Origin: Carcharhinus longimanus
Lineage: Eukaryota
Reading direction: 5' to 3'
NCBI GenBank assembly: GCA_030264375.1
Contig: JASCQW010000119.1
Location: 10,414,781-10,478,780 of the forward strand
DNA length: 64,000 nt
Part shown: positions 1 to 42,928 of the stretch, in pieces
Position numbering within the stretch: position 1 is the stretch's first letter
How the letters are laid out: each line of letters opens with the position of its first letter
The notes under the pieces: model-generated
What the model saw: only the letters and a program-made list of their open reading frames with translations
The model's database searches: none
What the model was told of the DNA's origin: nothing
Position numbers and translations under genes: made by a program

Positions 1-673
1 GTAGAGGAGACAAATGGGACAGGTAAAATGGGTGCTTGGTCAATGTTTGGGTGGACTTTGTGTCTTCAGCTCAGGGGGGGCCTCGCTCTCAGTCAAACGG
101 TGATGCTCCCGCATGCAGGTGATGAACACGCCTTCCACAATCTCGTCCAACAAGCAACAAACATAAAACGAACGGGGAGCAACCCCAAACTCATTCCGAC
201 TGCCCTCACCACCCTGAAATCAGTGAGAATTTCGAGAATCCAGGCTTCAAATCGCTTTGTTTTAGGTCTCTCTCTCTCCAAGCGGCAAACGTCATTTTCA
301 AGTAGCTCAACTCTCACTGTGGTACCAGCAGCAAATTCCGTGAATGATAATCTATCACGAGGTGGTGCTTAATGAGAATGTATCACTAAGACCACTGTAC
401 ATGCTGTTCCATGACTAATAGAGATTTGATATTTAATTTAAAACGACCATTCAAGGTAGATTCTTTGGCTAAATTGAACACTACCTCGAGCATCGGACAC
501 ACAATTACCAGCATTGTTTAAATCCGGTGAACACATATTGAAGGTTTCGTTTGATAAATCGCTGATGAAAGTAACGCACCGTTTCTGCACTACAGAGCTA
601 ACTGCTTGCAAGGCGTCCATGAAAGAGTTAGGTAAACGATAAAACTTTGTTTTGATGTTTTAAAAGTAAGGAA

Positions 674-698: not shown

Positions 699-2699
699 GC
701 ACCATTGGACAACGTGTTCACATCGAAATCGAGTATACAATCTTCATTTAACCATCTGTCTCCAAGCGGTTTAACTGTCTTCCTCTGAAACCCTGATTAA
801 TATGTATGGCTTTCTATCTTGGCATCATTCTGCTAAAGGTGAGCTCTATTTCCTTAAGAACCTTTATAATATTGTTGCAGGCGATGGTCACAGTTGCTCA
901 CCAGAACGGCAATAAAATTGAACGAGGCATTTATGAAACTGTTGAATAATGCGCACATAAAATTATATCAAACTCTTCATGTTTCAAAGGTTGATGTTCC
1001 GGTATTTTTCGTAATTAAATCACTTGCCCTTTCACAGAGGACATGTGGGAATCAAAGGATGAAGGTGATTTTTGTTTTGCATGTTGTGACGGCATGAAAA
1101 CATCGTATATATTCGATTGTTTATGTACCCAACAAAACAAAACCCTTGGGAATGTATGAAGATATGGTTCAGTGGATCTTTGGCCTCTGCAACCGCATAA
1201 ATTAAACATCATATCTCATAATCCGGACTAGAATCCACTGCAATTATGCAGCGTTTTTTTTTCAGATCGACTGTCACATATATGAGTCTTTAATGCAATC
1301 TCTCCCGGTTGCGTTAACCACCACATATCCCATAATCAACATAATATCAAAAAATAAAATACATCATGTTATGTTAAATGTTGCTTGTTGAGCCGTTTTG
1401 TCCGAAACATTATCTTTGGAATATCTGAAGAACATTCACATCAGGAATGGCATTTGAATTTCATGAGGTTCTCGGAAAACTGCTTTCACTTCTTTGAAAA
1501 AAAATCTTTTGGCCAATTGACACTGGTATTATATTTATTTTAACGAGAAACAACCTACCATGGATTTAAAATTATCACGTGATCCTACCTCAATAGATAT
1601 TTACATACGCAATTCCTAATTAGTTTGTTGGAGAGTTTGCATCAACTTGATTATGTTGCCTAAGCAAGTAAATTACGTGACATAAAGCTTTGTTGTTTCT
1701 CTTCGTATTTTGTGTAATCTGGATAACGTGCATGTCAAGTTATATATTGCGACATGTACACTAGATACTTTTATTTTATTTTCCGCAATTTAGTTCCATG
1801 ATTGCATTCCGCATCAGGCGAATATCGCACTCCAATCCGCTCAACATCAATGCAACCAATATTAAGGTGTAGTTGTAAAATAACTTGTTCCATTGGTAGT
1901 CTAACCAGCGATTAGAATAACACATACACAAGCCACAGCCCAATGCACTTAACTGGGTTATTAAATATTGAAAACAACTTACAGTTTTTCAAACAACGTG
2001 TACATTGGTTTATGGTTGGGAAGGTGCCCGAAAAATGTTTTTTATTTCCCCTCCAAAATTAACTTTGCTTTCGATGAATCCTAGAAAATATGCATGACAT
2101 GCATTCTGCTAAAGTATTGAAAATTGAAATTAAATAATTCAAGGTATTTTATGTTGTTGTTTGCCAAACTGCAGAACAAGAGGCAAGGAATAGGCTTCAT
2201 GACAGATCATAGCGGATAGTTTCCGAGGGACAAAAAATCTCCGCAGAATATTTGAAATGCAACGCACTCTCTCGAAACACCATCACTTGCTAATTTCTAT
2301 GTTGTTGTCAAAACATTCTCCTACCTTTTTTTTCCTTGGGATATGTATTTTTTGCCCCCCTCTCCCACCCTGGCCCTCTATTTTAATACACTTTGACATC
2401 GAAAAATCATTGTCAGTAACATTTAAAAGGAGTAACAAACTGAGTTTCAATCCCGCCACTGAGACCGGAGTGAGAAAGGAAAGATTTGAACACAAAAGTC
2501 CGGCTGTGTCGATAGATTTTCTGATAAAATAGGAAAACGATGGTGATTGAACATGCAAGGAAAAACGACTAAATGGTATCCGAAGATGAAAATGAAGCAC
2601 GTAAGCAGAACTCATAATCATGTTCATTGCCTCAAAAATACCCTGTGCAAGAGAACGTGGACATGATTTCATCTGCCAATCTTTTCCATTCCACATTTC

Positions 2700-7459: not shown

Positions 7460-8640
7460 CTTTGATTTAATTTGATTTGATTTATTGTCAGATGTATAAT
7501 GTGTGAAAGGTCTGGTCTCATGCGCACCATGCAGACAAATGAAACGATTCATACTGTGCATAAAGAAGGAAGAAAGGAGAGGGTGTTGACTCACTTGTTA
7601 TAGTTATACGTATCCCGCAGGCGAAAATCAGTTTAATATATCATATATCTAACAAAACTGTGATGGCAACAGAGAACAATGTATAGTTGAGTCGCTTGGC
7701 GTTTTTAACATTGTGTAGCTTTTTTTTTCCCATGGAATTAGGTGCAAGAGAGTGTCTCCGGGGTGTGCATGGTCCTTGATAACGCTGCTTGCTTTTCGAA
7801 GGCAGCGAGAAGTATAGATAGACTCAATGGATGGGAGGTCTTGGTCAGATAAGGAAGCAGACAAAGCTGAAATGCATCCAGAAATCATGTTTTCTGTTGT
7901 GTATCTGTAAAAACGCTGGGAGTCGCAGCGATCATAAGGTATTTACTCAGCTACCTGAGAAGTTATACGCCGTGATGGAGTTTCCGAACCATAGCGTTGA
8001 TGTGGAGGGAACACGGATATGATGTTTGTGATCTGAACATCTAGAAACTTGAAGCTGTCAATCATTTCAACTTGATTATCGTTGCTGTGGACAGGGACGT
8101 GTCATCAATTACGTTTCCTGAAGTAAATGGCAACCTGTTTTGTATTACGGAAATTGACGGAGAGATTATTGTTGCATCATTTCAACAAATTTTTCACCTC
8201 TTTCTTATATGTCTGCGCCCCGTTGTTTTAGATACAAAAAATTACAAGGGTGTAATCAGTAAGCTTGACGTTGGAGTTGGAGCAGGTATTTGCCACATGA
8301 TGATAAGTGTATAAAATGTAACGGGGTTAGGACACAGCCTTGCGGGACAATGTAAAGGAAAATCTTGGATGAGGTGTCTCCTTTTTTCTCTCCTTCTGAA
8401 ATACGATATGTTGGGAAATTTAGTCAAGAGACGAAAGACCTGAGCCTGTGTGCACGTGTTTACAGTTGAGTATTAATGGAAGAACGGTGTTGAAAGCTGA
8501 GTTCCAGTCAGTAAATTAAAATCAGGCATTTATCCTTCCTATTAGTGTGTTCCAGGGTGAGTAAAAGCGTCTGCTCTAGTTTTGTTGCGGCGATAGTGAC
8601 CATGAAATCTAGGAGACGGGAGATGACGCGTGGCATGACT
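7460..8640 (-). mobile_element. Rex1/Babar-type LINE, decayed 3' part
   Basis: Minus ORF 7649..7888 LPSIESIYTSRCLRKASSVIKDHAHPGDTLLHLIP is typical of the Rex1 C-terminus. A (TTTGA)n tail lies at ~7460-7485 and RT remnants extend to ~8600. Confidence 0.7.
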
Positions 8641-13577: not shown

Positions 13578-15009
13578 AGTGCAAATTCTGATTTTTTTTT
13601 TAATTTCTCTGAATGATATCGAGTTCCCAGACTGCTGTGGTGGTTGCAATAATGCACAGAACTGAACATTATCTCCACGCTCTCCTGACAAGCGTCTGGG
13701 TAATGCTTGCCAGGTTGCCGTAGGTCAGTTGCTGACTTCCATAAATCAGAAATCACAAAACAAAGCCCGTCATTGGAGGTGCAGTGCTGGTACAGATGGC
13801 CCAATTCTGGTAAACTGTAAGCTCTATTGATTTCGTAGTGTTTTTGCAATAACTGTTTTACAAAGAAAAGTCAGGAGAAAATAACTTCAGTTCTGCGGAA
13901 GTGTTCCAGTAGGGTTCTATGATTCTATTTCAAAAAAAAAGAAATAAATATGAATTGCTGCTAAACAGGTTTACCTCTTGTGTTCATGTAGCTCAAGGCT
14001 CTTTTTACCATTATACGTAAATATTTCCACACCAAGTTATTTGCTAATTGCATTTCGAAGATCATAGAGGAAACTCCTTCCAATGCACAGCAACAGCGAG
14101 ATCTGCACGAAAGTTTTACTTTATGTTTTCACTCATGCTGATTTTCTTTATTTTGCAAATAACCATAAATTACTGACATCTGGTCCTAGTAACTTCCATG
14201 AGTTCGAAGAGCCTCCCAACATCTCCCCTGCCGTTCGTTCATGGAACTGAATATATCTTCAAATGTTCATCCTAAAGCCTGTTCTGCAAAGAGGGCAAAA
14301 AAAATTCTGAAATTTGTGGTCCAAATTCAGGTCGCTATTTTTGTAACAACTGACATTACTCGTGAAATGCACAAAATACTTAATGTCTCAGAGGTTAATC
14401 CACTTGAAGCGTGCTTGTTTCTTAAAGTAAAACTTAATATGTTAATATGACCTTGATGGGCAACTTTTCTCGCCCGAGTTGTGCACGTTGTTTCAGTGTG
14501 CGTGCATCCGCCAAGTCGCCTCTGCACTGCTACAAGGACGGCTCCCTGAGCACCAAAACAAATTCAAATTTCAAAACATATGATTAAGCAATGCATTCTG
14601 TTGATTCGCAGTAACAGGTGTGTTCTATACATGCATGGATACGTTGAAATGGCGCAGTTTTGAAACAATTTAAAAAAAAAATGATTCACCTGACATCAAG
14701 CCTTCAGTCTGAATAAAAAAGCCTGCATGCATTTGTACAGTGCATTTTCCTTGTGCCAAATGGTACCCCGTCTCCAGTCCTTTCCAGCAACGCAGAGATT
14801 CTTGCGTCAACCACATATCCGAGGCCTCCTTTACAAATTCATGACACGTTCGCAGATTGATACAAACATTTCTTTTTCGATGTTGCCTACATGCTTTGGA
14901 GTCTTTGTTCCAATATCCATAGTACTGCAGGATTACATAACAGTTTTCCTATCTATAGAAGATGGAAAGTCATAAGGAAACAATTAACGTTTGTTTTCCT
15001 TTATTTCAG

Positions 15010-15045
15010 ATCTTCTGGACACCAATAAAGTGTTGAAAGAAACAG
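15010..15045 (+). CDS. 36-nt coiled-coil micro-exon (DLLDTNKVLKET)
   Basis: ttttcctttatttcag|ATCTT...GAAACAG|gtctga; phase 1-1, open, same length as paralogous exons; weak donor. Confidence 0.65.
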
Positions 15046-16399
15046 GTCTGATGATACATATTGCCTTTTGAAACATCTACCCTACCAATTCACGACGTTT
15101 TCAGCGTTCTATGTTTACAGCTCGTAGAAAACTTAAACATCTTCTATATAGGAACTCAGGGTGTTAATTAGCGATCTTGACGAACAACTGTGATGAAGAA
15201 ACTGTAAGCACATTATTGTATTTACTGTTGAAAGGCTTAGCCTTCTCAATGCAATCATTCTGAATCAGAACGTATGATAACTCCAAACTTAAAGTTTGTT
15301 TATGGTTGAAAAAATGAATGGACACACTCCAGAGGCAAGTCTGGTCTGCTTTCCAATAAAAAGGCACGACGAAATAGGAAACTTTAGTTGTATGCATGTG
15401 TTTGATTGGATTGAAGCCCGATGCATAAAACATAACATATTGAACGTACGAATAAGCTTTTACGCAAATCCATCATTTTCTGCCGTCTGATAAATTCATG
15501 ACCAGTTTGATTTTTGCCTCAGTCTCAGTGATACGAATATCCCTTGATTCACGTATCTGTCAAAAATATATCGAAATTTGTCTTAAAATAGGCTAACACA
15601 TTTTATAAACAATAAATTGTGCAATGTCATTCAACAGAATGGTTCCGCTATGCGAGAAACATCATTAGTTTCTCTATATCTCATATGTGTTTTGCTTCTG
15701 CTGAGTAGTTGCCCGGTCCCAGTCTCTTCCAACAACGCAGAGGTTCTTGCTTCATCCACAAATCCGAGGCCCACGAGCTGCTTAGAATTTTCCAGTGCAT
15801 AATGACTTATTGTCGGGGAAACACTTTCTCGCAGCCCAACCTTGTCCTATCCATCTACCGGTGCAATGATCCCTTTGAAAACTTCTTGTAACGGAAGTTA
15901 CATTGCAAAAGCAAAGTACATAGTAAATGGAAGAGCCCTTAGAAATGTCAGCATACAAAAGGATTTACGGGTGCAAATCCAGAGCCGTAACGCTGGTTGA
16001 AGCGTTTCAAATAAAGGTCGAATTTATCTCCTCTCGAGTGAAACTATGTCCTGCCATAGCCTTGTTAGAAATGCTGCACGTAACACTCTCACCGTGGCTT
16101 GCAGACAGCTCCATGTAGCTCCTTATAATATTTATATGTTATTCTATGTCTCGTCTATGAATGGAATCTGTATTATACGCGTTGAGAACCACTGTGGCTG
16201 CCTGTCATGCTGTCTTCAATAATTTGTCGCCCGGTACCCCTCGATCCCTCTGTGATCATGTATTTCTAGCATTCTACCATTCACTAAGCTATCAATTGAA
16301 TTCTCATTGAACAATGTTCGGAGAACACATCCATTTGCCATTGCCCACATTACTGTTATCATCCTGCTATCTGAGGCTTTGTTCCTCTCTATTTATAAA

Positions 16400-16712: not shown

Positions 16713-17014
16713 GGGAAAATTAGCACAATCCCAATGTTAATTTCATCTGCACACTGTCTGATCCTACCTAACATCTTCTCTTCCAGATTTTTTTGTCAAA
16801 TGCCTACAGCATGAGCCGCAGCAACTTTCACTGCAGAACACGATTGAACTCATGTTTTCAGTAATTAAAAAAAAAACTGGTTACCACCCTCTGCCACTAA
16901 GGCAATTTAGCAAATTGCACGGCTTCCATGTCCCAACACTAGTTTATTTCAGCGAAAGTCCGAATGCAGTCCATGTAGGCCAGATGAACAACATTGTGCT
17001 TATTTAAACAAATT

Positions 17015-17234
17015 CAGTATGCCAATGCCTCGAATCAGTTGGGTAATTGTAAATCCCGTGTTGCCTGTCATGTTACACTCCATGTCTACTTAGTTGACTC
17101 GGTATCAAATTATAGCTGTCTCTGCCTCAGGATGGAGTCAAAAAAAAAAGTCAGATAAGCAGATGTTGAACTTCGAGTCAGATTTGGCTATTGCACGGCG
17201 GGAAAATAAGTCAAAGCCTCAGAGCTGTGTAATG
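17015..17234 (+). repeat. Copy 1 of a ~220-bp diverged local duplication (copy 2 at ~18800-19020)
   Basis: tgccaatg.ctcga.tcagttg...cccgtgttgcctg...tatcaaattatagc.gtctct...gttgaacttcga.tca.attt...agcctcaga.ctg..taatg is shared by both copies. Confidence 0.9.
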
Positions 17235-17900: not shown

Positions 17901-18799
17901 TTATGGCGCAGGGTATGGATGCGTTTGTTGCTGGTGACACCGTTTTCGTTTTCGTTTTGTGCTATAGAGTTTATATGTTGCACATCATATATGATCTGTG
18001 AAATCACTATGAGATCGTGTGTATGTGCTTCCATCTGAAGTTCACTTTTATTTATGTTCAAATGATTGCAGGTGAAATTCAGATGCAGATATCATTACTT
18101 TTGCAACTTTTTTTTTGCCACCTGCCCGCCAGGTCTATTCTTTGTTCATTTCAGCTGGTACAATAAGACTGCATGTGCCAAGTTATAATGACAAATACAC
18201 TTTTTGGTCCAACTATATATGGTTTTACCAAAATTGTCTTAAATTCATGACTCTTTCTCTAACTTGTCGCATCATTCCAAATACTAATATAAAAATGTAT
18301 TAATATCCGACTCATCAGAATACGTCCAAGGAGGGTCCATGTGAAGACCGTCCTGGTGGTGCATCTTATACCACATTTAATGTCCATAAATTGGAAATTA
18401 TTAACCACACCCATGAATTGAAATAGCCCCATCGTACTTAATCTTTATAGATTTGCATGAGATTTTAGAAGTCAACGCTGAACTGTTGCGCTTGAGGTGC
18501 AGCTTTTTTTCAATGAAGTTATTCATTTCATAGACTGTCAAAATAATTTGAACTTTCTAGCCTTACATGTATTATTTGATACATGCATTCACATGGTAAA
18601 TGTATCCTTCTGCGCCAATAGAAATTGTGCCCCCAGCCCAGAGCAATCATCCTCACCATTGTTATCCGGCAGTCCACAAGTCATTCTGGGCAATAGCTCG
18701 CCTATGTACCTCCCTAAATGTGCTCGATCAAAACGATCATTCCTCAGAATGGATTTTCATCAATGGTTACCCAATCAACGATCCCCAAGCATTCCCTTC

Positions 18800-19020
18800 A
18801 ATCTGCCAATGTCTCGATTCAGTTGAGCAATTGGAATTCCCGTGTTGCCTGCCATACTACACTCTGTGTCCACTTACTTGGCTCGCTATCAAATTATAGC
18901 CGTCTCTACCTAAGGATGGAACGGACAAAAATACCAAATAAGCGGGTGTTGAACTTCGAATCAAATTTACCAGCTGGATGGCGAGAACATAGTTCAAAAG
19001 CCTCAGAACTGCATAATGGG
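18800..19020 (+). repeat. Copy 2 of the ~220-bp local duplication
   Basis: Colinear similarity to 17015-17234. Confidence 0.9.
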
Positions 19021-19031
19021 CAGTCAAGATG

Positions 19032-19109
19032 CCATTCACCTGCTCCCAGTGTGGGAAAGGATTTACTTGTTCATCTCACCTGGTGAGACACCAGCGACTT
19101 CACAGGTGA
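19032..19109 (+). pseudogene. Isolated terminal C2H2 zinc finger plus stop codon (truncated ZNF gene copy)
   Basis: Translates [25 protein letters not shown], a perfect Kruppel-type finger. No further fingers upstream; followed by a UTR-like tract with AATAAA at ~19185. Confidence 0.8.
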
Positions 19110-19384: not shown

Positions 19385-19411
19385 AGGAGGAGCTGAGAAC
19401 AAAAGAAGATG
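19385..19411 (+). CDS. 27-nt coiled-coil micro-exon (EEELRTKED)
   Basis: ttttgtcttcttttgagcag|AGGAGGAGCTGAGAACAAAAGAAGATG|gtatct; phase 1-1. Confidence 0.75.
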
Positions 19412-22400: not shown

Positions 22401-23706
22401 TTAAACCTTTTTGCGTTTAATTAACCAGCTCTTGAGAAATGCAAAGAGGCATTAAAAGAATTGGGTGAGAAAATATGTGTTTCTTTATTTATTTTCTTCC
22501 AACGTATTCAAATCATTGGGGAATTGTTTCAGATTGTGTTGTCAGATCTATTGTGACACTGAATTGTGCAGTAACGACAACACATCTTACATGAAATAAC
22601 TTAGTGAATGTTTTAATTAATCATATCATGTTCCCAAATAGAAAACCACAGTTCCAGCCAAAAAAACTTTCTGGAATTCCATATATAAATTCTCTCATGG
22701 TTAAACACAAACATATTCAAACAAATTGAAATTGCAGGAGGATTTTTGAGCCCGCGGTGTCAAAAATCAGGAGATGTTCAGCCTCATCACAGTTTCTCGC
22801 GCATGACCCATTCCCTTGGTGGCAAATGTATAATAAACAAATATTCAATTAGCATTAAATGTTTGGGGTTGTAATCATGTTGCATCTTACTTGAAGAGTT
22901 GGTGTCCAATTAGATAGCACACTCTCATTGAAACCGTGGCTCCTTTTTTTTTCTCTTCGTCAATTCATCTATTTAAATCCTGAAAACAAAACAGCTTTTA
23001 CGGATCCCTGGAGATTGAGTAACATGATGTCCGAACTTTTGTTTTCTAAACTTTCATATTTCTATCCATTTCAGCCATATATCTGATCGAGAAAAATAAA
23101 CAATTTCTATTCAATGTCTGCATTACACGAAAACCGACAAATTGGTGACGCCCTTCTCATCGCGCTTTAACCGGAGAAGCAATAGTCTATGACGTTTCTC
23201 TTAATGTCCCTATCTTGGAAAAGCAAACTTCTTCTATTTGTATGGTATATTATTATATCGATTCAAGGCATTTCATGAAGTTCATGCAGAAAAATACTGT
23301 TTGTTTGCTCTAAATGGGACAAACAATCGCATGTTTGCCGTATGTTCTCTTCGTCTCAACAACGGTTTACAACAAATTTATTTGCATTAATTTTCATCTG
23401 TCACAATTTATTTGTTTCTTCACAATTTATTTTGTCTTTCCTTATGTATTTCTTTCTTCCTTCCTTCACATTTTTTCTTTCCTTATTTCTTTCCTTATGT
23501 GTTTTCTTCTTTTTCTTTTTTTTCTGTCGTAAATATATCGACCGATGCTTACACCTTTAATGGTGCAATCTGTTTTTCCTTCATGAATGTGAATAAACAA
23601 TTTTAAAACTGATCAAAAAAATCATGCTACGTGAAGAAAAGCGCAGCACAGTCGAAATGTTTCGAGTTAGTTGACATCTGCGGGCTGATGTGTTCTTCCA
23701 CGACAG

Positions 23707-23733
23707 AAGGAAAATATAACGCAAAAGAGAAAG
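23707..23733 (+). CDS. 27-nt coiled-coil micro-exon (EGKYNAKEK)
   Basis: ttcttccacgacag|AAGGAAAATATAACGCAAAAGAGAAAG|gtgagc. Confidence 0.8.
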
Positions 23734-24576
23734 GTGAGCATTTGGTCACGAAGCCAAATATATTTTTCACAGCACAATAATATTGTAGAAAATCACTGTT
23801 TTGCAAAGTAAATTGAATACATTATCATGAACTTTCAGAAGACGTTGTTACTATCTGTTTTTAATTGCGTAGACGTGAAATGAATATGTTTCTTGCCGTA
23901 CAAAGATATGTTGCGTCTTCAAAACAATGACGATAAACTACGTAGTACTGATTCTAAAATTATATCCAGCTGATAGCATTTAAAAAGAGAGCGGACGGAA
24001 TGCGTATCTCGTTTACCAGTGGAGAATTATTTGCCGAACACACATTGCTTCAAGTGGATATATTGGTATATTGATGAAAGAGGAAAGCACCGAACGTACA
24101 TTTTTTTTTTAAGTTGCGCTGTATGTTATGGTGGAGGTGATATGTCTTGAATCTTATACTCGTGTGGAACATTAACCACAATTGTAGAATTTCAGTGAAA
24201 TGTTCGAAATGTGTTTCATAGTGTGCTCGGGTCAATCGACGGAATGTTGACATGAATCGATTGACTTCAAGTTAGATATTTTGCTTGCAATGAAAAACAG
24301 AATTGTGTTGGTGTGACAAGTAATTGGATTTAAATTAATTTAGATAGGTGAAAACTACATATTAACACCCCTTCAGAGTTTTCTTTTTTAGTTAGCAATT
24401 ATGGTATCACGTTTATCATTCAGATTTTTTTTTAACTTTCATGTGGTTTGTTGAATTGACATTTCACTATGTGCTGTGGATGGATACGAATTAAGGTAAT
24501 TCGAGCAATACCCTGACTCATCAATTTACGGTGCCATTACGTTGTACTATGAATTGTCTATGTTTTTGAATTTTAG

Positions 24577-24612
24577 AGCGAACCGACTACAAAGAATCTT
24601 TAGAAAATTTAG
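24577..24612 (+). CDS. 36-nt coiled-coil micro-exon (ERTDYKESLENL)
   Basis: tttttgaattttag|AGCGAACC...GAAAATTTAG|gtgagc. Confidence 0.82.
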
Positions 24613-25023
24613 GTGAGCAAAACGTTTGTCTTCCCAACATTTAGAACAAATGTATGCTATAGTCAACATATTTTGCAGATTTATGCGATTTTCATAACGC
24701 GGGTAATGGCAATGCTTACATTCCTTACAAATTGAAATGTCTTAAAGTATTTCCATGGACTTTTCTAAAAAAAACTTCATTCGAGTGGAAAGGAGCAAGA
24801 CCATCTTATTGGTTTGTTGCTGAATATACCTTCTGTAAACAACATGATCCTAGAATATTCATAATTGTGGTTATACCCCTCTTCTCCGAAGAATCATACA
24901 CTATTCATTACGTCCATTTCGATTTGAATGGCAACATGACCGTAGCAAAAAAAAAATCCTTCACACAAACGTTCAGTTAATGCCAGAATATGTTTTTTTT
25001 GTTTCTTAATCGATCCGCAACAG

Positions 25024-25050
25024 AAGTGAAACTAAACTCCACAGAAAAAG
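25024..25050 (+). CDS. 27-nt coiled-coil micro-exon (EVKLNSTEK)
   Basis: ccgcaacag|AAGTGAAACTAAACTCCACAGAAAAAG|gtagtt. Confidence 0.8.
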
Positions 25051-25624
25051 GTAGTTGTTAAAACGATGCGTTTAAAAGTAACACAGGTTTAACAGGTGGT
25101 CGCTTATGAATTTTACGTTAGTCTCAACGTCATATTTGTTAAAAAAAATCACAAAATGAAGTGGATACCGGGAGATTAAAGCATAACCAAAACAGGTCTG
25201 ACAACATCTCTAGAGAGATAGAAGGCGTTATTTCCATGAGATTTCAACATTATCGAAATTCGAGGATGAGTTTTTTTCTCTCTCTCTCTTTGCGCATGCT
25301 GCCCGACTTGTCGAATTGCCTGGCGTTTTATTCCTGCCATTGACGGGACTGGTTTCTTTAAGATGTTTGAGTGTGTATTAAACGTCAGCCTATTCGCTGT
25401 GGCCAAACAAGTTGAGACCGGTTGATTTCATCCCAATCGGCTATTTTTCTTTGCGTGTGAATTACGGTGTCATTGATGGTCAATTTAAAATTCAGGTGTT
25501 AACTTACGTTCAGATTGTACGTGTGTGTGGTTAATTTCCATCATGTTTCATCGCAGCGGTAAACTTGCTCTCCACGTCCTGTACTCCAATGTAATATTAT
25601 GTATTGCCCATTTTCTGCACTTAG

Positions 25625-25660
25625 AAAAAAACAACCTTAAGGGCGCACTGGAAGATTTAG
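25625..25660 (+). CDS. 36-nt coiled-coil micro-exon (EKNNLKGALEDL)
   Basis: ttttctgcacttag|AAAAAAAC...GAAGATTTAG|gtgagc. Confidence 0.82.
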   Translation, partial: KKTTLRAHWKI

Positions 25661-26057
25661 GTGAGCAAACAGCTTGTGTTGCCTATATTTTGGATTCAGA
25701 ATGTCTTGCATTTATGTTTTGCTATCAAATGCAAACTGGAGAATTGTCAAATGGACGCCAATTATGTGATAACAGATCATGAAGGTTTCAATTGACTTCA
25801 CAAAAAAAAGTTGCGTTCGGATGAAAGATGCTCAATCTAAAATATTTATAGGATCAAGAGAAACCAGAGTGAATGTGACGAGCGCTAAATAAGATGATTT
25901 CTGTAGAATCAAATTGTGAATTCCATTGAATTCCTCCCGAAAATAATGCAGCGTTCGTCATATCCGGGTCGGTTTGATGAATGAAAAGTATCAAAAATTG
26001 CCGTTGGCGACAATTTAAGATAATTGCACATTTTGTGTATGTTCTTTTTTGCGACAG

Positions 26058-26084
26058 AACGGAAACTAAAATTAACAGAAGAAG
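26058..26084 (+). CDS. 27-nt coiled-coil micro-exon (ERKLKLTEE)
   Basis: ttttttgcgacag|AACGGAAACTAAAATTAACAGAAGAAG|gtagac. Confidence 0.8.
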
Positions 26085-29000
26085 GTAGACGATTTACCAA
26101 TGTGGCGATTTAAAGTGTAAAAAAAAAGTTTCACAAGAGATGTTTCATATACTAGATTGTATGCTTTATGTTCTGATGAAGGAAATATTTTGAAAACTAT
26201 CTTATCCCTGATTTCATTGAAGGGGTATGTTTATGGATGCTTGAAATAATAATAAAAAAATGCCTGGGAGCGATTTTGGAGGTAGAAACAAAATATGATA
26301 GCCTACTGATGCCAAAACCAGCCAAGAAATCCCCTTGAACTCGAAGGATACCAGCTGTTTTTTTTTGTTTGTTTTCTCTTCACATAGTCTGCCCGACCTG
26401 CTGATTTGTTAAGATGCATTCCTTCTTTTGCCAACATTTATGCCAACCGTTAGCCCAAGAAAAACCTATGAAACGTTTTTGATAATTTAGATGTTAACAG
26501 AAATCTGTTCCACATTGGTGAATGGAAAGCTCATCAAGAGTAATGACTAATTTATTGTCTCCCACATTAAAACATATTTCCATTAATACTTTACTACCAA
26601 AAGAGTTATTACGATCAACTAGCCTCAGCAGAGCGGCTTTTGATGAGTCAATGTGGTAGAAATATTTTATCATGTGTTATCCATGTGGAGGATTAAGGAA
26701 CATATATTTCTCTTGCCCGAATGGTGTGACGAGAATGGGTAAATTCCGTGTACTACCATTGACACACATTAGAAAGAATTTGCACAAACCCTTTCAATCA
26801 GTTTGTGCTTATTAATTTTAAATGAATAAATGGCAAAATTTAGATTACACAATGTGTTCGAGATTGGACGTGCGCGATAATGCTGAAACATTTTTTTTAT
26901 ATCAGTTAACAATGGAGCCAAAGTGTCCTTTACGAGCTGAATCGCGAAATGGTCCTGCCGAACATGTCACTTTGTGCAGGCGTAAGGCTCCTCAGTTGTC
27001 TTTGATTAATCAAGCGCCAGACATGTTAGAAGCAAATACGTTAAAGGAACACTATGGTTGATGTTACTCTGGAACGAGTAATCCCATTTGCTGAAATCAA
27101 TACCAGTATTATAGGTATGCAAATCAGAGAAGAGCGCTTCGAAAGTATACAATGATTTGACGTCAATTGTTTATGGTGACATGAAAGTATACACGCTTAA
27201 AGCGTGAATAATTTCTGATTATTCAATAGACACTGTAGTGCCATGTTTTTGATCTTATGATATTGATTAAAAGGAGATAAACACATGCTGTTCAAATTGG
27301 AATCTCAGGGTTTACCAGTGTAGCCATAAACATAACAAAAATACAGTTAAAGAGTTTTACTGGTGGCCCGATTGATGTCAGCTCTGTTATGTTATCCATT
27401 CTATACAATTATCAATTTAGGAGGACTTGATCTTATGCTACAAAACAGAACATTCTAATACGCCAATGTAGAACTTGTTCTCTGCACCCTGTACTGTAGA
27501 CTCCATATGAGAGTAATGCATGTCCCCTTCTTTAAAAAGAATATCTACTTCAAAAAATAATTCAAGTATTCCATTATGTAAATGAATTACATCGGTGCAA
27601 GAAAAAAAAACAATTCGTGTGCACATTTGGGATTTTCACATAGCAAAAAGAGGGATGAATTCCTGTAAGAGGCAACTTTAATATCCAAATGCCAGATTTC
27701 AGAGGATGTATCACAAACAGCACGCCAGCATTACTTAGAGCAAACTATCACCCTCCAATCTGTCAAAGATTTACGAACAGAGATGCAGAAAAATCGCAGA
27801 GATGTGCAAATATTACAGAGTGTGAGTATTGGAGACTTCAGTAGCAAATATATTGATTGGCATCATCCTGCAGACAACGTTAATGGAGGGTCCACAATTG
27901 ATAACGTGTTAAGGAAAATTTACTTGACTTGAATTAACAGTTCAGTGAAAATTGACATCTTACACCATTCTCTATTAAAAGGCATCATTGTGACATGAGG
28001 TAAATTGTGACCATAACATCACAAAGTAGTAAAAGCTGAGAATGTTTATTGCAAACAAACAACATGGAAACTAGAGAAGCATAATGGAATGAAGACAGAC
28101 CTAACTTGGATGCAAATTGAATAAGTTGTTTAATGGAAATCATACATATAACATGGAATGGCATTGAAATTATAATAATAATAAATGTTTCATATGTTAT
28201 AAGGCAAATTGAAACAGGGCAAATTGTAAGAGATCATTTGTTTGGGGCCAGATCAGAAACTCCACGGTATAGTAAGAAGTTAGCATACACCCCCAGTTTT
28301 AATTGATGTTTCACATTAATATGTTCATAAAGAACTCTCTTCCAAGCATGATTCAGCAGGCAACTTTTGTTAAAACAAACTNNNNNNNNNNNNNNNNNNN
28401 NNNNNNNNNNNNNNNNNNNNNNNNNNNNNNNNNNNNNNNNNNNNNNNNNNNNNNNNNNNNNNNNNNNNNNNNNNNNNNNNNAAATCACATTAGTATACAG
28501 TTAACCAATTTAAATACGCAAGCATTGTGTGGTATAAATAACAACAACTATGTAATTCTATATATCTAATTTAAGCAACAACCCCACACACTTAAATTCT
28601 TCTTCAGAATCAATTAACAAACAGATATGGGCATGGTCATGCCAGATTTCCCTTGGGTAACTTCTTTGGGTAGTTGTAGCATGTCAACTGTCACCTAACT
28701 CCCATTCAACAATCTCACAAAATGCCGCATCCTATATCAACAGAATTTTAGGCAAAGGCACCTGTTTTCTGGCAGATCTACTTCCCCAGTATCTAGTGAC
28801 AGAATGAGAGACAATTTTATCTGGCTTGATTTATCTGTGCAAGTCTTGCCCGGCCAGGTCACATTACTTTACCTGTCAGTCAAACTAATCAGGTCCCATT
28901 CTGGAAAAAAATACTAAAAACAAGTGTGGTTGGCATAATTATATCTAACGATCAGTAATTAGGCACAATTCTGATCATGCAGTATTGTTGGTTGTAGAGA

Positions 29001-29399
29001 AATATACAACACAAATGCATAATACTAACTGCTAAGAACAATTGGTGACAGAAACATGACGCAAATGTATTTGTTTTAATGGCACAGTAATGTCACATAT
29101 TGGGTTACGTTGATAAACCATGGCCAAAGTAAACACACACACACACACATATTTTTGCAGAAGTGCAGACCAGAAATACATACATTAAATTGTAAAGGAA
29201 AAGAACAACAAAAAACACAACACCGGGACTTTGAGAACACAAAAAAAATGGACTGCAAAAATTAAACTCAAGCCAAATATTTTCCATCTAGAACTCAGCA
29301 GTAGTTACGAAATAGGGAAAACAAATGGATTAGAGTTAGGGCATGCAGGCTATTTTCTTTTCCTTCGACGTACAGAATAAGGACATACTATTTCATGCG

Positions 29400-30790
29400 T
29401 TTTTTCATCATTGAAACGTTCTCAGGAATAAGAATTTGACCTCACATTGGGATCAGCTGAAATGCGGCAACTATGGATGATATTGAAGTGATTACAACGT
29501 TTTTGGAATTGGATGGATATGTTTTGCTAAATAACCTCTGGCTTAGCACACATCTTGCGAAAGAACGTTCAGATGCTTTGCTACAATCTTTTGCATTAAT
29601 CATTGAATATTCTCCAGATATTAACGCTATGCAAGAAGATAGAACGTGGTGCATGTTACGCTTTTATTTCAGGAATTATGCATGAACATTTCTAATAACT
29701 ACACTACAGTTAGGCTGGCAAAATATAAGATTCAGGTTTGAACCCGTGATAATAGCAGCACACATGTCTCTGCTTACTGTGACTTTTAGCTTAAGAGGTG
29801 AGAGTATGAACTTAAAAAAAAACAGTCACTCTCTCTTAATGCAACTGACAATTTTAGATTGCCCAAGAAATACAGTTTTCAATGCAACGGATTCGACTTT
29901 ATTTATGGTCATTCCAACAAAATGCTTGTCGTCCGCTCGCATAAAGCAGTTACATTCATGCGGGAGGTACCATTTGAAGCCAATTAAGTTTAACAAAGTT
30001 TAATTCCGCGCAAAATGTCGAGATGATTTTTAGAGAAATCCGATTGGCTTTGTAAATATCCAAAGAATGACTTAAAAAAAGGTGGAAATGAACAAGGTGG
30101 ATGAGATCTTTATCAGTTTTCAGAAAAAAAAATCGACAGCTGTCTATCCCTAGTCCAGCGATCGCGGTTTTGGCCTAGTTTCGGGATAACGGGTTGAACA
30201 ACGTAAATGACGAGACATAAAGATGTGAAGAGCCCTTGCACTTTAAACCATTTCTCTACAAATGCCGCATCAAAACTCAGCATGATTTTGAAAACAAAAT
30301 CGGAATGCATTTCAGGATTCTTTTAATTACAACTTCACCATTCCTACCGCCGTTAAAAAAAATTCCCTCATCCTTTGAATCGCTCTCTGAAACGTTTAGA
30401 CAAAAATACATTTTATGATAGTTTCCTTCTTTAATGAAATGAACATCAATTGAAACAGTACTCAAATAAGTGGAAATGCTTTCTAAAAGTGGTGCCATAA
30501 CTTCATTGCATATTTTGCAATGTTTATCTACATAGGAATCTTGCAAAGCTTAATACTTTTTTTTGTGAAACAAGGGTTACAATTTTGCACCTTTGTCCAG
30601 AAATATATCTAGGTGGTCTCTTCAGCGACTGAATACACAATTCAACCAGCCATTATCCATTGTCTTTTCATGAGACTTCTAAAATCCATTGTTTAACAAT
30701 GTTCTTCCCCGAATTTCCTCAAATATGCCAAGCTCTCTGATGTTGCTACAATCCCGTAACAATTCGTTAACTATACATTAGGAATGTGCA
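29400..30790 (-). mobile_element. Highly decayed hAT (ZMYM1/Tip100-like) transposase
   Basis: Minus-strand fragments in the expected order: F-(stop)-KSHEKTMDNG (cf. FRGHDE..N.GNF), VSIDVHFIKEG..KMYFCL...DEGIF (cf. LSI.VRFV...E.FL.F), and KASERSFAR..SQRL (hAT dimerisation motif ERSFS). Confidence 0.55.
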
Positions 30791-31138
30791 TGCGTTTGAA
30801 GACTGGATGTTGTGTAGCTGAAAATGTGTTTCCTATCCCAGACTGATCATGGAGTAAGTGACTTTCTAGGCCATTGCAGAGATCATTTTGAGATTTAATC
30901 ACTTAGCCAAGGTCAGAAAAGTTAAGCAAGACAGCTGCTAACCCTGGTGGCTTATCATGTCATCTATTAAAGTTCTATCTCCCAAATTATGCACATTAAC
31001 TCACAATATTAAGCAGAATTCATTTTAAACAGCATCCATAGTTTGCACCTGAAAGCGGCTTACTCGTGCTTTACGGTGTCTCACCGTGTCCCTGTGCAAT
31101 GAAGCTTTATTATGCATTGTCTATGTTCTGATGTGCAG

Positions 31139-31174
31139 AAAACAATGGTAGAAAAACAGTTCTCGAAGGTTTAG
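31139..31174 (+). CDS. 36-nt coiled-coil micro-exon (ENNGRKTVLEGL)
   Basis: atgttctgatgtgcag|AAAACAAT...GAAGGTTTAG|gtaagc; flanks resemble those of the 24577 and 25625 exons. Confidence 0.82.
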   Translation, partial: KTMVEKQFSKV

Positions 31175-31763
31175 GTAAGCAAATCGCCCCTCTTTGCAAT
31201 ACTTAGTAAGTGCATCTTACATTTCGTTCAAATTGCAATTTCAAATAATTTGTATGACTTAATAGTTGACAATACCGACACTCATTGTAGAAAGGCAAGT
31301 GATAAATTGTTTTAGTAGAAAGCAAAAATGATGTATTCGAATATAAAGGGGCCTGAGCACCAACTGGTGCTTTTGGTAACAATTCTTTGCTGAAACCATC
31401 AGCAGTCCTGCCAGTCAAGATTATGAATCGACCTGTTCTACAGCCATTTGTGTTCGAATTATTATTTCTTCCACCTCAATCTGATTCGCAATGTTGAACG
31501 AGCAGTACAGAACACTGTCCCTCGTGGAAATGAAAAGTTCGATGAATTTCATGATTCTGATTGCTAATTTCTCCCCAACAGAAAATAAACTAAAATCAAA
31601 AGAAAAAGTAATCAATTTCACGATCACACAATCTAAAGTGACCGCTGTCTAACACCTGAGCCTTCATGCCCTGCATGTTATGAATACAAATTTGCTAAAG
31701 TATTTTCTTACAAATTAATGGCCGAGAAAAAAAAAGGCTCAAGATAGGTCTTATCGCAAGCAG

Positions 31764-31786
31764 CAGAGCGAGCTAGAGGGAGAAAG
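31764..31786 (+). pseudogene. Frameshifted paralog of the 27-nt exon
   Basis: cgcaagcag|CAGAGCGAGCTAGAGGGAGAAAG|gtaaat keeps GAGCTA and the GAGAAAG|gt end. The three possible acceptors give 26, 23 or 20 nt. Confidence 0.55.
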
Positions 31787-33399
31787 GTAAATTTTTCTAT
31801 TTCCGATTCTAATATGTCTAGAAGTACAAAGGTGAATCTTATTGAACTGAAAACATTTGACCTTTTTTATTTCACTTCAGCTGACCAACCCTCTGAGTTA
31901 TTCTGGCAGTCATTTTCATTGATTTATTTATTCGCTAACGGAGCGTGGGTTCGCTGGCTTGGCGGAGACCTATTGCCCTTCATTGTTTCCCCTTGTTGAC
32001 ATATCATTTATTAGGAAACATCAGTGATGACTGACTAGAGTAATATGTTTATCGCAAGAATTAACAACAGCAGAGTTCCCCCCTTAAAGAATAAAAAGTG
32101 AGCCAGAACGGCCTTTTTTCTGTCCAAATCTACATTTTTACAAGCAGATCCAAAAAATTAATTGCTTGGATTTTCCAGTCCACATTTACAATTTATGAGT
32201 TAAAAGGTGACCATCAGTAAGGGGGATTCGGGCCTAATTGCGTTAAGCATTTGTTTGTGTTTGCAGTTTATTACTCCAGTGAAGCTACGATTGCACGACT
32301 GACTCCAGTATTGCCAATATTTCTTTGTGTCTTCAGTTAGCGAAAGTACTCAGTTTGTTTAGTCAGCCAAAATGACTGCAGTTGCGCGGAGGGCGGCGGG
32401 TGGCGGGGGTGGTGGTAGACGGAGGGAAGTGAGTGTTGGGGGGAGGCGGGGCGCGGCGGTGTTGATCCTGACAAGCTTGCGGAGGTATTTTTTGGAAGAA
32501 ACACAGAGATGACTTTAGTTCGGCGAATGAAAAATATCAATTTATAACGTCTGCGGGCCATCATGCATTCAATTAATAAACAAGTGCGCAACATTTTCCA
32601 GGTTTTTGGTTTCCTTATTTTAAATCAGTAAATGACGCAGTTCCAATATTATGAGCACCTCATGAATTGTATTTGTTTGGGATTCGTGAGATGAATTGAG
32701 CCACGATGCATTACCATTACAAATGGAATTGGACATTGTTAACAGATGGAATTACGGAAACGTGCCATAGAACAATTTAATGCTGCAGTTGTAAGGCTAT
32801 TCAGTTCTCTTATATACATCCAGCAGAGACTTTTTTTTAAGCCAAATACATGAAACATTGTTATTGAGGTTACTACGGAATAAATGACCTATTTTGCGGG
32901 AAAAAAGAACATTATATTAACTGTGGCATATAAATGGGAGAAGAGTGTTTCGAACAGGTACTGTGATAGGAATTCGTACACTGATATGGAACATTCAAAC
33001 AGTCATTGAATTTTCGAAACCTGACGTATTGCACAAACTAAACAGGGTTCATTTTTTTCTTCATATTGTGATATTGCCTCAGATATAGAAGACAAATATA
33101 GCTGAATGTACACCTCTGAATGCTATGCCGCCGATCGTTGTAAAACTAATCGAAAAATTGGTACAAAACTCGATGGATGCCCAGTTCAAGTCACTTCATT
33201 TATGTTATCAGTGCCAATTAACATTTTATCAACTTAGAATCTCTAAACATAATAGAGTGCACAAGCCAGCAATAAATTTCAGGTTCATAAAGAATTTGTT
33301 CAACAAATTAAATGATCCACATGAGAGTTATGCATTCTTATATCAGCAAAACTGTTTCCATAACGCTAAGAAATGCACCTAATACAAATATGTGACATT

Positions 33400-34920
33400 G
33401 AAGCTGCATCACATCTTTGCTAAATACTCCATTGATCCATTCAGAATTCGATGAATTCCTAATCTCACATGACGAACCTTACAATAAAAAAAAGTTTTCA
33501 TATGCCTACCTCAAAGTAGAAAAAAAAGGACTTCTTGCTGCATTATAGCTACTCCAGATCTGTGAGGTAGAATTAGGAGCAAAACTGGAATGAAATCGTT
33601 GAGATGCGCTGGAAAGCAGATTGAAGATGATTTGGGGAATGAAAACAAATATATCGATTGCAATGGTGCGGCAGCAAAAGCTAAGTAGAGAGAGCAATTT
33701 ATAACATCCATTCAAGAAAAAAAAAACTTCACTAGAATTTCCCCTACTCAACGGGAAAATTTGTGCTTCAAAAACAACATTGAAAATAAAACTGGTTGAG
33801 CAGTAAAGCAAGTAATGGTCTGAAATGTGGCAATAATTGGTTATTGCAACGGAAAGTTTAGATTAGTAGTAGAAAAGTGACCAGACAATTTATTGTAACA
33901 TATTCAGAAGCTGGCAAAATATAATGGGACGGAAACAGGCAACAGGAATGAAATTGTACAAAACACCGACCAGCGATAGCATCAACGATTGACACTTCAA
34001 TGAGATAAACTGCAGAACCGGTGAAGCAAATTCCAACATGGCAAAATGTAAGGGATCGTTGGAATACAAAAAATATATAAGAATTATGATGAAAGTTTTT
34101 TTTTTAAGTGAAGTATACAAATGAATGCGAGGTGAACTTCAGAAATGAGAACATTAAAAAAAAGGTTTGATTGAACGGAGGATCGAAAAAGAAAACAGGA
34201 CTGGTAATGCGATCATGTCAAATTAAATGCAATTTAAAATAAAAGTAAAGCAATGCATGTTCCAGCGGACTTGAACAGTGATCGGTAAATACGAGATAAA
34301 TAGATTAGCTTTGCAAATAGAAGCCGGTCTGTTCTTCGATGTACAAAACAGATCGGATGCATAATTCGTTTTTTTGCATGTTGTCTGTGCTAATGACAAC
34401 AAATCTGAACAAATCCCTGCAGCAACAGAAATGTTGAACTGACCGATGTTTCGAAATCGAAAAAAAATGGTTTCCGAAAATGGAGCTAAATGTTTCAATA
34501 GATAAGCCCTCGAAAGTACTTGTCTCCAAAATTGCTGAAGATCAAAGAAATGATTTAGCAGATTGTACTGAATTAATCGTTCAATATCCTTTCCCTATAT
34601 GTGGACACTTTGACAGATGAAATAACCTAGACAATAAAACCGCTGAATTCGAGAAATGAATAACAGTCCTAACATCTGTAGCCGAGTTAGGTAGCAAGCG
34701 GGGAAGGTGTGAATTATTTTCTATGAGCATGTGGAAACTTCTCTCTATGAATAGGCCAGCTTTTGGTTTAAGATTTTTTTTTGCTTTTAATGAGAAAAGT
34801 CACAGTTTCTATTCAATGATGCTATTATGTTATACAAGGGGTAAGTTGTCCAAAAGCCATGCGCTGAAATTTGTACATTGGGATTGTGACAACATCATTG
34901 TTAAACTCTCACATGACGCC
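33400..34920 (+). mobile_element. Very decayed CR1-like LINE ORF2 fragment
   Basis: A-rich remnant with aaagtttttttt..aagt..at, gcagaaatgttgaac-like and gataagccc..g motifs in CR1 order. Confidence 0.5.
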
Positions 34921-35321
34921 NNNNNNNNNNCATGTTGTGTATGGACTTAAACCGAGTGGAAGGAAAGCGGATTAAACCAATCCCAAATATTTTGAAAAGC
35001 GTCAGGACGTTAGCTTAACTTTAATGGGTGTTTTCAATTGTGCAGGTGGAAATTTGGGTGATAATTTTACAAATCGTCAAGTTGGGCGAGAGCTTTTTTT
35101 TTGTTTCCCCCTGCTCTTTGTTGTTAATTGTCAGCGGCTGTATTTTTGTTGTCCAACGGGAATACAGGCTCGATCGGAATCACAGAATGTTATAGTATAT
35201 AAAGAAGCCCATCGAGTCTGCNNNNNNNNNNNNNNNNNNNNNNNNNNNNNNNNNNNNNNNNNNNNNNNNNNNNNNNNNNNNNNNNNNNNNNNNNNNNNNN
35301 NNNNNNNNNNNNNNNNNNNNN

Positions 35322-36530: not shown

Positions 36531-37344
36531 AATAGAACGGTGTAGAAACAAGTTAGAAGTTATGAGTCTTGAGCTGATTAACTCACACCCAGAGGCTGTA
36601 ATTTAGTCACCCATCCAAATGTCCAAGTCTGGAATGTGATTAATTTCTGTTTACTTGTCTGAGTGAGTAGAGCTCTTACAACATTTAAGAAGATAGTCAC
36701 TTCTACGGAAAATTCACTCTGCTTAATTTGCACCGCAGAAACTGTCATTCACTCTTATCATAACTGAACGAACCAAAACCACATGTGTAACATTCAGAGG
36801 ATTCAGTATACAAATTCACAAATTCTGCTTTTTGGTACATTTTAAACGAAGGTGTGGGAAGTTCTAGCAAACACCATGAATGTTGACATGTTTTTCTTTT
36901 GTTTTGTTATTCTGATTTGCAGCCAAAATGAAGGAAGTTGGTGAACATATAAAACAGTGGTGTACTCCCAAACGTTAGGGTTGAGTTGTCATCTTATTCC
37001 CTCTGCAGCAACATTGGCAACTGCTTCAAGGCATAAAACAAGGACCATGTATTTATGCCATATGTGTGGAAACGGAAAATGGTGAGGTCTCCAGTTGGAA
37101 ATAATTACAGCAAGTTTATTACACAGCACTAATGTGCAACTCTCCACTGTCTGATATCAGGCCTGGAATCTAGCCCTTAGCTGATTGTTTAACTTTATAT
37201 ATTAATAAGCCATACACAAATTCTTACAGATTCCGTGTAAAAAAAATAATGAACATCTGCAATGACCTCAGACAACAGTTACTATCTGCCATGAATGCAA
37301 CATGTTTATTGTCCAGCTATCAAGTTGTCGTCTACGTTCGGTGG

Positions 37345-42210: not shown

Positions 42211-42246
42211 AGCTGGCCAGTTGCCAGAAAGCACTTTTTGAACTAG
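42211..42246 (+). CDS. 36-nt coiled-coil micro-exon (ELASCQKALFEL)
   Basis: tttactcctttgcag|AGCTGGCC...TTTGAACTAG|gtgagt; consensus splice sites. Confidence 0.85.
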   Translation, partial: SWPVARKHFLN

Positions 42247-42901: not shown

Positions 42902-42928
42902 AACAAAAGCTAAAGTCCAAAGAGAAAG
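42902..42928 (+). CDS. 27-nt coiled-coil micro-exon (EQKLKSKEK)
   Basis: tttttctctctctccggtag|AACAAAAGCTAAAGTCCAAAGAGAAAG|gtattc. Confidence 0.82.

What the first reader, a model, noticed from the sequence alone, without database searches (positions are those of the whole stretch)
23280..31800. Exon pair multiplied by tandem duplication of ~1-kb genomic units
Seen: intron flanks are paralogous. After the 36-nt exons come gtgagcaaaacgtttgtc (24613), gtgagcaaacagcttgtg (25661) and gtaagcaaatcgcc (31175). Before them come attgtctatgtt (~24553, ~31116) and attgcccattt (~25603). The 27-nt acceptors share cg(a/ca)acag-like sequence, and ttttctct...ctgcccgac.tg recurs at ~25275-25310 and ~26372-26400. 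The 36-to-27 spacing is ~400 bp in two units. Inference: the coiled coil grew in three-heptad steps by unequal crossing-over. The exons are now strongly divergent in amino acids while keeping length and heptad leucines.
Basis: partly seen in the sequence, partly recalled or inferred. Interest (0 to 1): 0.7.

Follow-up and report, generated by a model that had tools for sequence, protein, structure and literature searches.

The report
Ancient tandem-duplicated micro-exon pairs
Three neighbouring pairs of tiny exons in what looks like a shark gene are old copies of one another, introns included, which shows a long coiled-coil rod growing 21 amino acids at a time by a process already known from chicken BG genes; the third copy has since lost one base.

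Summary
Largely confirmed, with corrections. Three 36+27-nt phase-1 exon pairs (U1 24577, U2 25625, U3 31139) share intron sequence well beyond splice signals (blastn 57-64%, E 4e-7 to 3e-15); no other copy of those introns lies in the window. Only U1 is a ~1-kb unit: U2 and U3 lie 5.5 kb apart and share a long intron out to ~29,880/34,850. Intron divergence is ~0.6-0.8 substitutions per site, so the duplications are ancient, not live copy-number variation. The 27-nt exon and the end of the 36-nt exon are conserved above intron level; the first 24 nt of the 36-nt exon are not. The third 27-nt exon is only 26 nt (frameshift; same letters in a raw-read contig), so U3 is probably skipped or dead. 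The pairs belong to an array of seven strictly alternating pairs across the window. The scan noted this gene type before on other DNA (giant shark coiled-coil/B30.2 gene); I could not test the B30.2 end here. Unequal crossing-over is inferred; chicken BG1 is the published precedent.

The parts
24577..24612 (+). U1 36-nt exon (A1), phase 1-1, 12 codons
   Evidence: AG/GT flanks, open frame; leave-one-out profile score 34.3 against best minus-strand control 7.7
25024..25050 (+). U1 27-nt exon (B1), 9 codons
   Evidence: leave-one-out 33.8 against control 11.4
25625..25660 (+). U2 36-nt exon (A2)
   Evidence: leave-one-out 20.2
26058..26084 (+). U2 27-nt exon (B2)
   Evidence: leave-one-out 34.7
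31139..31174 (+). U3 36-nt exon (A3); splice sites intact, open; core positions 2 and 5 are Asn and Arg
31582..31607 (+). U3 27-nt-type exon (B3), only 26 nt before GT: shifts the frame if spliced in
   Evidence: profile score 32.8 as a non-training hit; none of 10 GT/GC donors within 130 nt gives an open in-frame exon; an X1 contig over 30616-32383 has 0 other letters and 0 gaps
24400..25440 (+). Duplication unit U1 (~1.05 kb; edges approximate)
   Evidence: blastn and tile diagonals at offset +1043 to +1088 to U2 and about +6560 to U3
25445..29880 (+). Duplication unit U2 as far as homology to U3 is seen (period 5514 bp; contains an assembly gap at 28382-28481 and ~0.85 kb without counterpart in U3)
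   Evidence: offsets 5513, 5524, ~5800, then ~4970 to U3
30960..34850 (+). Duplication unit U3 as far as homology to U1/U2 is seen
22429..22464 (+).
   Evidence: intron similarity to U3 at most marginal
23707..23733 (+). Older 27-nt exon (B23)
   Evidence: no flank homology to U1-U3 downstream
596..631 (+). 36-nt exon A0 of the same array
1038..1064 (+). 27-nt exon B0
15010..15045 (+). 36-nt exon A15 (weak donor gtctga)
   Evidence: best non-training hit, 14.2 against control 7.7
19385..19411 (+). 27-nt exon B19
42211..42246 (+). 36-nt exon A4
42902..42928 (+). 27-nt exon B4

Best explanation
The window is the middle of a large vertebrate gene, most likely of a cartilaginous fish, whose product has a long heptad coiled coil written in alternating 36-nt and 27-nt exons, all phase 1-1 (12 + 9 = 21 residues, three heptads; core positions 2, 5, 9, 12, 16, 19). 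Shown: U1, U2 and U3 descend from one exon pair by two head-to-tail genomic duplications that carried their introns along, one of ~1.05 kb and one of ~4.7-5.5 kb. Shown: U1 and U2 stayed under purifying selection. Inferred: because both exons are symmetric and add up to three heptads, each added pair lengthens the rod without disturbing frame or register, which is why whole pairs are kept. Inferred: the duplications arose by unequal crossing-over or a similar misaligned repair, some hundreds of millions of years ago, and the copies are now too unlike to recombine. Inferred: U3 worked for much of its history and then lost one base at the end of its 27-nt exon; it is now most likely skipped (the pair drops out with frame and register intact) or yields a truncated, decay-prone transcript. 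From earlier notes of the scan, untested here: the rod ends in a B30.2 (PRY-SPRY) domain and acts as a spacer and dimerisation stalk, as in butyrophilin and BG tails.
For: Intron homology beyond splice sites. Profiles of the shared intron segments hit only the three (or two) training copies, best other hit E 0.23; blastn of the units against the rest of the window gave 0 hits. Seven 36-nt and seven 27-nt-type exons alternate strictly on the + strand. 27-nt exon plus last 12 nt of the 36-nt exon: 30, 29, 30 of 38 identical, P 0.004-0.011 against 57% intron identity. A unit evolving neutrally for 0.3-0.35 substitutions per site keeps both AG, both GT, frame and no stop in 0.15-0.95% of 4000 runs. 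pN below pS in all 15 unit pairs. Precedent: BG1 tail varies by a four-exon repeat, probably by unequal crossing-over (PMC5043582, passages).
Against: No transcript was seen, so the exons are predictions. Breakpoints were not found; edges fade into noise. U2 and U3 share the long intron yet are the least alike pair near the exons (45.7% against 51.2% and 51.6%; A2-A3 and B2-B3 intron segments not above shuffles), so a simple two-step history is not resolved. Part of the conserved exon ends may reflect splice signals, not protein. One depth bin inside U2 (25658-26254, depth 268 against ~9) holds a high-copy piece, so some shared intron sequence may be old repeat relics. No protein relative was retrieved.
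Confidence: 0.75

Rival explanations
1. The duplicated pairs are alternative (cassette or mutually exclusive) modules, so the gene makes rods of different length or surface, not one longer rod.
For: All exons are symmetric phase 1, so skipping keeps the frame; several donors are weak (gtagtt, gtagac, gtctga); tandem exon duplications are linked to mutually exclusive choice (PMC9013439, search listing only); BG0 shows skipped exons in its three-exon repeat (PMC5043582).
Against: Introns of 397-574 bp between U1 and U2 leave room for normal splicing; strict A-B alternation over seven pairs fits constitutive reading; no RNA data either way.
Confidence: 0.12
2. The 26-nt exon is constitutive, so the whole gene is a recent pseudogene (or truncated) in this species; the other exons look intact only because the lesion is young.
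For: No in-frame donor rescues B3; A3 and B3 keep good acceptors; the laid run shows no second allele with the missing base (contigs drop rare variants and the run may be the source of the window).
Against: Thirteen other 36/27-nt exons over 43 kb are open with AG/GT ends; A3 has lost hydrophobic residues at core positions 2 and 5, though U3 shows no more amino-acid change than U1.
Confidence: 0.2
3. The intron similarity comes from independent insertions of the same old interspersed repeats, not from duplication of the unit.
For: High-copy pieces lie in bins 25658-26254 and 28046-28642; the ttttctct...ctgcccgac stretch resembles a common shark palindromic repeat (recalled, not shown: fold z +0.64 to +0.66).
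Against: Blocks are colinear, in one orientation and at matching distances from paralogous exons over ~4 kb; no other copy in the 64-kb window; most shared bins have depth 6-10.
Confidence: 0.04
4. U3 is not an internal duplicate but a fragment of a neighbouring gene copy in a tandem gene cluster.
For: A 5.5-kb period with a long shared intron is also what a partial gene duplication leaves; butyrophilin-type genes occur in arrays (PMC4046983, passages).
Against: No domain, signal or membrane exon was found between or around the units; the array continues in the same order on both sides.
Confidence: 0.06
5. The rod is the neck of a type II C-type lectin (CD23/CD209-like, 21-residue repeats; recalled), not the tail of a B30.2 protein.
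For: 63 nt per repeat matches the recalled CD23 stalk exon size; nothing in this window names the family.
Against: Four earlier notes of the scan tie alternating 36/27-nt arrays in sharks to a B30.2 end (unchecked here); no lectin exon motif in the 21 kb downstream of B4.
Confidence: 0.1

Closest known systems
Chicken BG1 and BG0 cytoplasmic tails (butyrophilin family; PMC5043582, PMC4046983, PMC5938342, passages read)
   Same: Heptad coiled coil written in many tiny exons; length changed by gain or loss of a multi-exon repeat (four exons in BG1, a three-exon repeat in BG0), ascribed to unequal crossing-over; skipped exons and truncated forms occur.
   Different: BG exons are 21 (18, 24) nt, one heptad each; here 36+27 nt make three heptads together. 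BG1 variation is between living haplotypes; here copies are ~0.6-0.8 substitutions per site apart. No IgV or membrane exon is seen in this window.
Giant micro-exon coiled-coil/B30.2 gene of sharks, noted four times by this scan on other DNA (e1-8029465, e1-8029509, e1-8029436, e1-8029743; AI notes, unchecked)
   Same: Alternating 36/27-nt phase-1 exons, possible 18-nt exons, long introns, heptad product.
   Different: The short notes I saw do not mention paralogous introns or a broken unit; no sequence link to this window was found; the B30.2 end lies outside anything I could read.
Tandem exon duplication in animal genes (PMC9013439, PMC8373072, PMC9741552; search listing only)
   Same: Adjacent homologous exons made by intragenic duplication, often ancient.
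   Different: Those papers centre on single exons used in mutually exclusive fashion; here the unit is a two-exon module that appears additive.

Membership tests
Intragenic tandem exon duplication | Adjacent homologous exons in one orientation with homologous flanking introns | tested here: met
Intragenic tandem exon duplication | Similarity not due to splice consensus or to repeats seen elsewhere | tested here: met
   splice signals trimmed; no other copy in the window; a genome-wide repeat library was not available
Intragenic tandem exon duplication | Frame-preserving (symmetric) module | tested here: met
   phase 1-1, 36 and 27 nt in U1 and U2; broken in U3 (26 nt)
Intragenic tandem exon duplication | Origin by unequal crossing-over (breakpoint inside a shared repeat) | tested here: inconclusive
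   edges fade below shuffle level; no junction found
Intragenic tandem exon duplication | Copies are spliced into mRNA | not testable with these tools
   no RNA holder listed
Chicken BG / butyrophilin family | Heptad repeats encoded by short exons | tested here: met
   hydrophobic at positions 9, 12, 16 in nearly all of 7 pairs
Chicken BG / butyrophilin family | 21-nt (18/24-nt) exon as the basic repeat | tested here: not met
   basic repeat is 36+27 nt; only one 21-nt candidate passed the + strand scan, same as the minus-strand control
Chicken BG / butyrophilin family | N-terminal IgV domain and membrane exon | not testable with these tools
   none in 145 + strand ORFs or by motif; the gene runs off the window and no genome is held
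Scan's giant shark coiled-coil/B30.2 gene | Alternating 36/27-nt phase-1 exon array | tested here: met
   7 pairs in strict alternation
Scan's giant shark coiled-coil/B30.2 gene | Occasional 18-nt exons | tested here: inconclusive
   candidates at 5-22, 8232-8249, 36923-36940; counts not clearly above the minus strand
Scan's giant shark coiled-coil/B30.2 gene | C-terminal B30.2 (PRY-SPRY) exon | not testable with these tools
   not in the window; exon-peptide searches retrieved no relative

The most novel reading that the evidence does not exclude
A giant, unannotated shark immune-type rod protein is tuned by birth and death of 21-residue two-exon modules: new modules arise by genomic duplication, the first eight residues of each then diversify faster than neighbouring intron DNA (8-10 of 24 nt identical against ~55%), the core leucines stay, and a module that loses a base is kept as a poison or truncation switch that yields a short form without the terminal domain, much as intron read-through truncates chicken BG tails.
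Probability: 0.12. Interest if true: 0.7.

Novelty: new member of a known kind. Interest (0 to 1): 0.38.

Why it matters
It gives direct genomic evidence for how a micro-exon coiled-coil array grows: the unit is the exon pair, copied with kilobases of intron, and slow shark-like evolution has kept the intron record readable long after the events. It also catches one module after it broke, which makes testable whether such arrays shed modules by skipping. The process itself is known from chicken BG genes; the host gene type was not found in print in my searches.

Tried and rejected
Whole-genome context: none held. RNA: no RNA holder listed, which says nothing about expression. Family identification: Pfam on 145 of 194 filtered + strand ORFs (of 499 of 35 aa or more) gave no domain for this gene; minus-strand ORFs were not scanned against Pfam. 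A 14-row exon-peptide alignment found 836 word candidates, none at E 10 or better. A 6-row profile against 1.84 billion representatives gave one hit, P0001, which matched the intronic read-through part of the first row (profile positions 31-42) and is spurious. The open frame at 27703-27819 looked like a longer exon but its U3 counterpart has no acceptor and has indels, and it has no relative (5 candidates, none scoring; only 'hypothetical' clusters near 0.9): rejected as an exon. Older pairs (A0/B0, A22/B23, A4/B4, B19) as part of the same duplications: intron similarity not above shuffles except one marginal value. Hairpin or RNA element at the ttttctct...ctgcccgac motif: folding no better than shuffles (146-151 of 200 as good); Rfam gave two chance-level rows. 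Positive selection on the first 24 nt of the 36-nt exon: P 0.13, 0.027, 0.13 for three non-independent pairs, window chosen after looking: not established. Order of the two duplications: not resolved. Look-ups of earlier notes by place and sequence were empty. One stray row (a record joining 31856 to 25196) was not taken as evidence of a further copy.
Full report
Setting. The window is vertebrate DNA of 32-47% GC with dispersed SINE-like copies and assembly gaps. The SINE and LINE ends and a high-copy zinc-finger-like piece at 19030-19105 look like those of cartilaginous fishes; that assignment is recalled and inferred, not a tool result. No genome is held and no RNA holder was listed.

Observation. 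The exons are A1 24577-24612, B1 25024-25050, A2 25625-25660, B2 26058-26084, A3 31139-31174 and B3 from 31582. Low-stringency self-alignment of 15000-46000 gave, among 11 off-diagonal rows, five strong ones inside the units: 24431-25094 vs 25484-26135 (57%, E 1.4e-10), 24501-25050 vs 31064-31608 (58%, 2.7e-15), 26975-27419 vs 32784-33228 (59%, 2.7e-12), 27753-27935 vs 33552-33739 (64%, 3.9e-7) and 29158-29721 vs 34140-34697 (59%, 1.9e-14). With splice signals trimmed, 7 of 12 U1/U2/U3 segment comparisons were reached by at most 1 of 60 shuffles; the misses were all three upstream-of-A pairs and both U2-U3 comparisons in the A-B intron. Only 1 of 74 comparisons with other exon pairs did so. 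Two of the segment kinds overlap, so these counts are not independent.

Unit size. U1 to U2 is 1048 bp, but U2 to U3 is 5514 bp. Tiles show one colinear diagonal from the U2 exons to ~29,880 against U3 to ~34,850, with offsets 5513, 5524, ~5800 and then ~4970 after a ~0.85-kb stretch present only in U2. So there were two duplications of different size, not a run of 1-kb units. The A-B introns are 411, 397 and 407 bp.

Is it only repeats? blastn of each unit against the window with 24300-35000 masked gave 0 hits. Six profiles built from the shared intron segments hit only their own copies; the best other row had E 0.23. Contig depth of run X1 is 6-10 over most shared bins, but 15 at 25061-25657, 268 at 25658-26254 and 317 at 28046-28642, so high-copy pieces do sit inside U2. 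The ttttctct...ctgcccgac stretch may be the arm of an old palindromic repeat (weak self-complementarity in U1 and U3; recalled likeness to a common shark element), but folding was no better than shuffles. If so it was in place before the duplications, since it lies at the same spot in all three. A genome-wide repeat library was not available.

Age. Aligned intron identity is 337/658 (U1-U2), 364/705 (U1-U3) and 298/652 (U2-U3); unrelated shuffles give 40 +/- 5% with the same aligner, and simulation maps these values to about 0.6-0.8 substitutions per site. The long shared intron gives 730/1401 and 392/710. Whale shark and zebra shark differ by dS 0.061-0.111 over ~50 million years (PMC13100897, passages). 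My arithmetic on that clock gives 270 million years or more; the species and local rate are unknown, so read this as 'ancient', perhaps 100-200 million years if the lineage is two to three times faster. At such divergence unequal exchange between the copies is not expected today (general knowledge). The tree is near star-like and U2-U3 is the least alike pair although they share the long intron (site patterns 79, 73, 49 in the A-B intron); the order of events, or a chimeric U3, is not resolved.

Selection. Units are 10-11 of 21 residues identical. pS/pN are 0.55/0.29 (U1-U2), 0.45/0.38 (U1-U3), 0.57/0.29 (U2-U3) on ~13 synonymous and ~50 non-synonymous sites; corrected by hand these give dN/dS of about 0.37, 0.77 and 0.34, with wide error. 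The 27-nt exon plus the last 12 nt of the 36-nt exon are 29-30 of 38 identical (P 0.004-0.011 against 57%), while the first 24 nt of the 36-nt exon are 8-10 of 24 (P 0.03-0.13 against 55%; chosen after looking). A neutral unit would stay intact in 0.15-0.95% of 4000 runs, so U1 and U2 are constrained. Leucine is kept at positions 9, 12 and 16 in 3 of 3 units; position 5 is Tyr, Leu, Arg.

The broken copy. B3 has 26 nt before GT: one G of the exon-donor GG is missing. None of 10 GT/GC donors within 130 nt gives an open in-frame exon. An X1 contig spanning 30616-32383 has the same letters with no gap; X1 may be the source of the window, so this speaks against an assembly slip but is not a second individual. 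One lesion where about five to six are expected under neutrality since birth (my estimate, P roughly 0.01-0.05), and B3 being as like B1 and B2 as they are to each other (20 of 26 each), suggest U3 was functional for much of its history.

The host gene. Profiles found seven 36-nt and seven 27-nt-type exons in strict alternation from 596 to 42928, all on the + strand; leave-one-out scores of the 12 training exons were 12.7-34.7 against best minus-strand controls of 7.7 and 11.4. No domain exon was found in 145 of 194 filtered + strand ORFs, and searches with exon peptides retrieved nothing real. Four earlier notes of this scan, on other DNA, describe shark genes of 300-500 kb built from such 36/27/18-nt exons and ending in B30.2. 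The exon pattern here matches; the B30.2 end is their claim and I could not test it.

Known comparisons. [quoted passage not shown] Butyrophilins with variable heptad numbers are reported in cartilaginous fishes (PMC12841164, passages). Searches for a shark 36/27-nt or micro-exon B30.2 gene gave no paper on it (0 papers; 5 listed; 15 listed, none with the word microexons; listings only except where passages are cited). No supplements were read; they could hold shark gene models.

Verdict. It is an ancient instance of a known process in a little-described gene, with unequal unit sizes and one broken copy. New member of a known kind; interest 0.38.

Noticed in passing
window 10758-11605 vs 12692-13579: A second old direct duplication (59% over 912 columns, E 5e-42) inside the long intron before A15; no exon-like segment scored in it.
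   Followed up: partly
window 4497-4523: A 27-nt B-like segment with a strong donor but CTG in place of an acceptor; an AG three bases on would give an in-frame 24-nt exon. It would break the A-B alternation.
   Followed up: partly
window 5-22, 36923-36940, 8232-8249: Candidate 18-nt phase-1 exons; the first two lie just before the Cys-bearing 36-nt exons at 596 and 42211.
   Followed up: partly
window 51841-51867: 27-nt candidate with a good acceptor and weak donor, score 11.4, equal to the best control.
   Followed up: partly
window 47864-48364: 166-aa open frame matching retroviral env (Pfam TLV_coat, E 7.9e-7): an endogenous retrovirus remnant in the intron after B4.
   Followed up: no
window 59364-59537: Weak integrase-core match (rve, E 0.0098, below cut-off) in a purine-rich, decayed stretch of about 56-60 kb.
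   Followed up: no
window 19030-19105: Short C2H2 zinc-finger-like remnant that draws very high contig depth (about 1958 in its bin), i.e. a piece of a large repeat family.
   Followed up: no
window 17013-17234 vs 18797-19018: Direct repeat of 223 columns at 78%, younger than U1-U3.
   Followed up: no
window 27669-27932: 87-aa open frame with coiled-coil look inside the U2 long intron; not kept in the U3 copy, no relative found.
   Followed up: yes
window 31777-31786: A 10-nt AG...GT segment 169 nt after B3 would restore the frame (26+10) but has no pyrimidine tract; probably chance.
   Followed up: no
window 596-1064: The A0-B0 intron is 406 bp, like U1-U3 (397-411), yet shows no sequence similarity to them: perhaps a trace of a still older duplication.
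   Followed up: partly
window 14745-14826 vs 15690-15771: 82-nt direct repeat at 78% on either side of exon A15.
   Followed up: no
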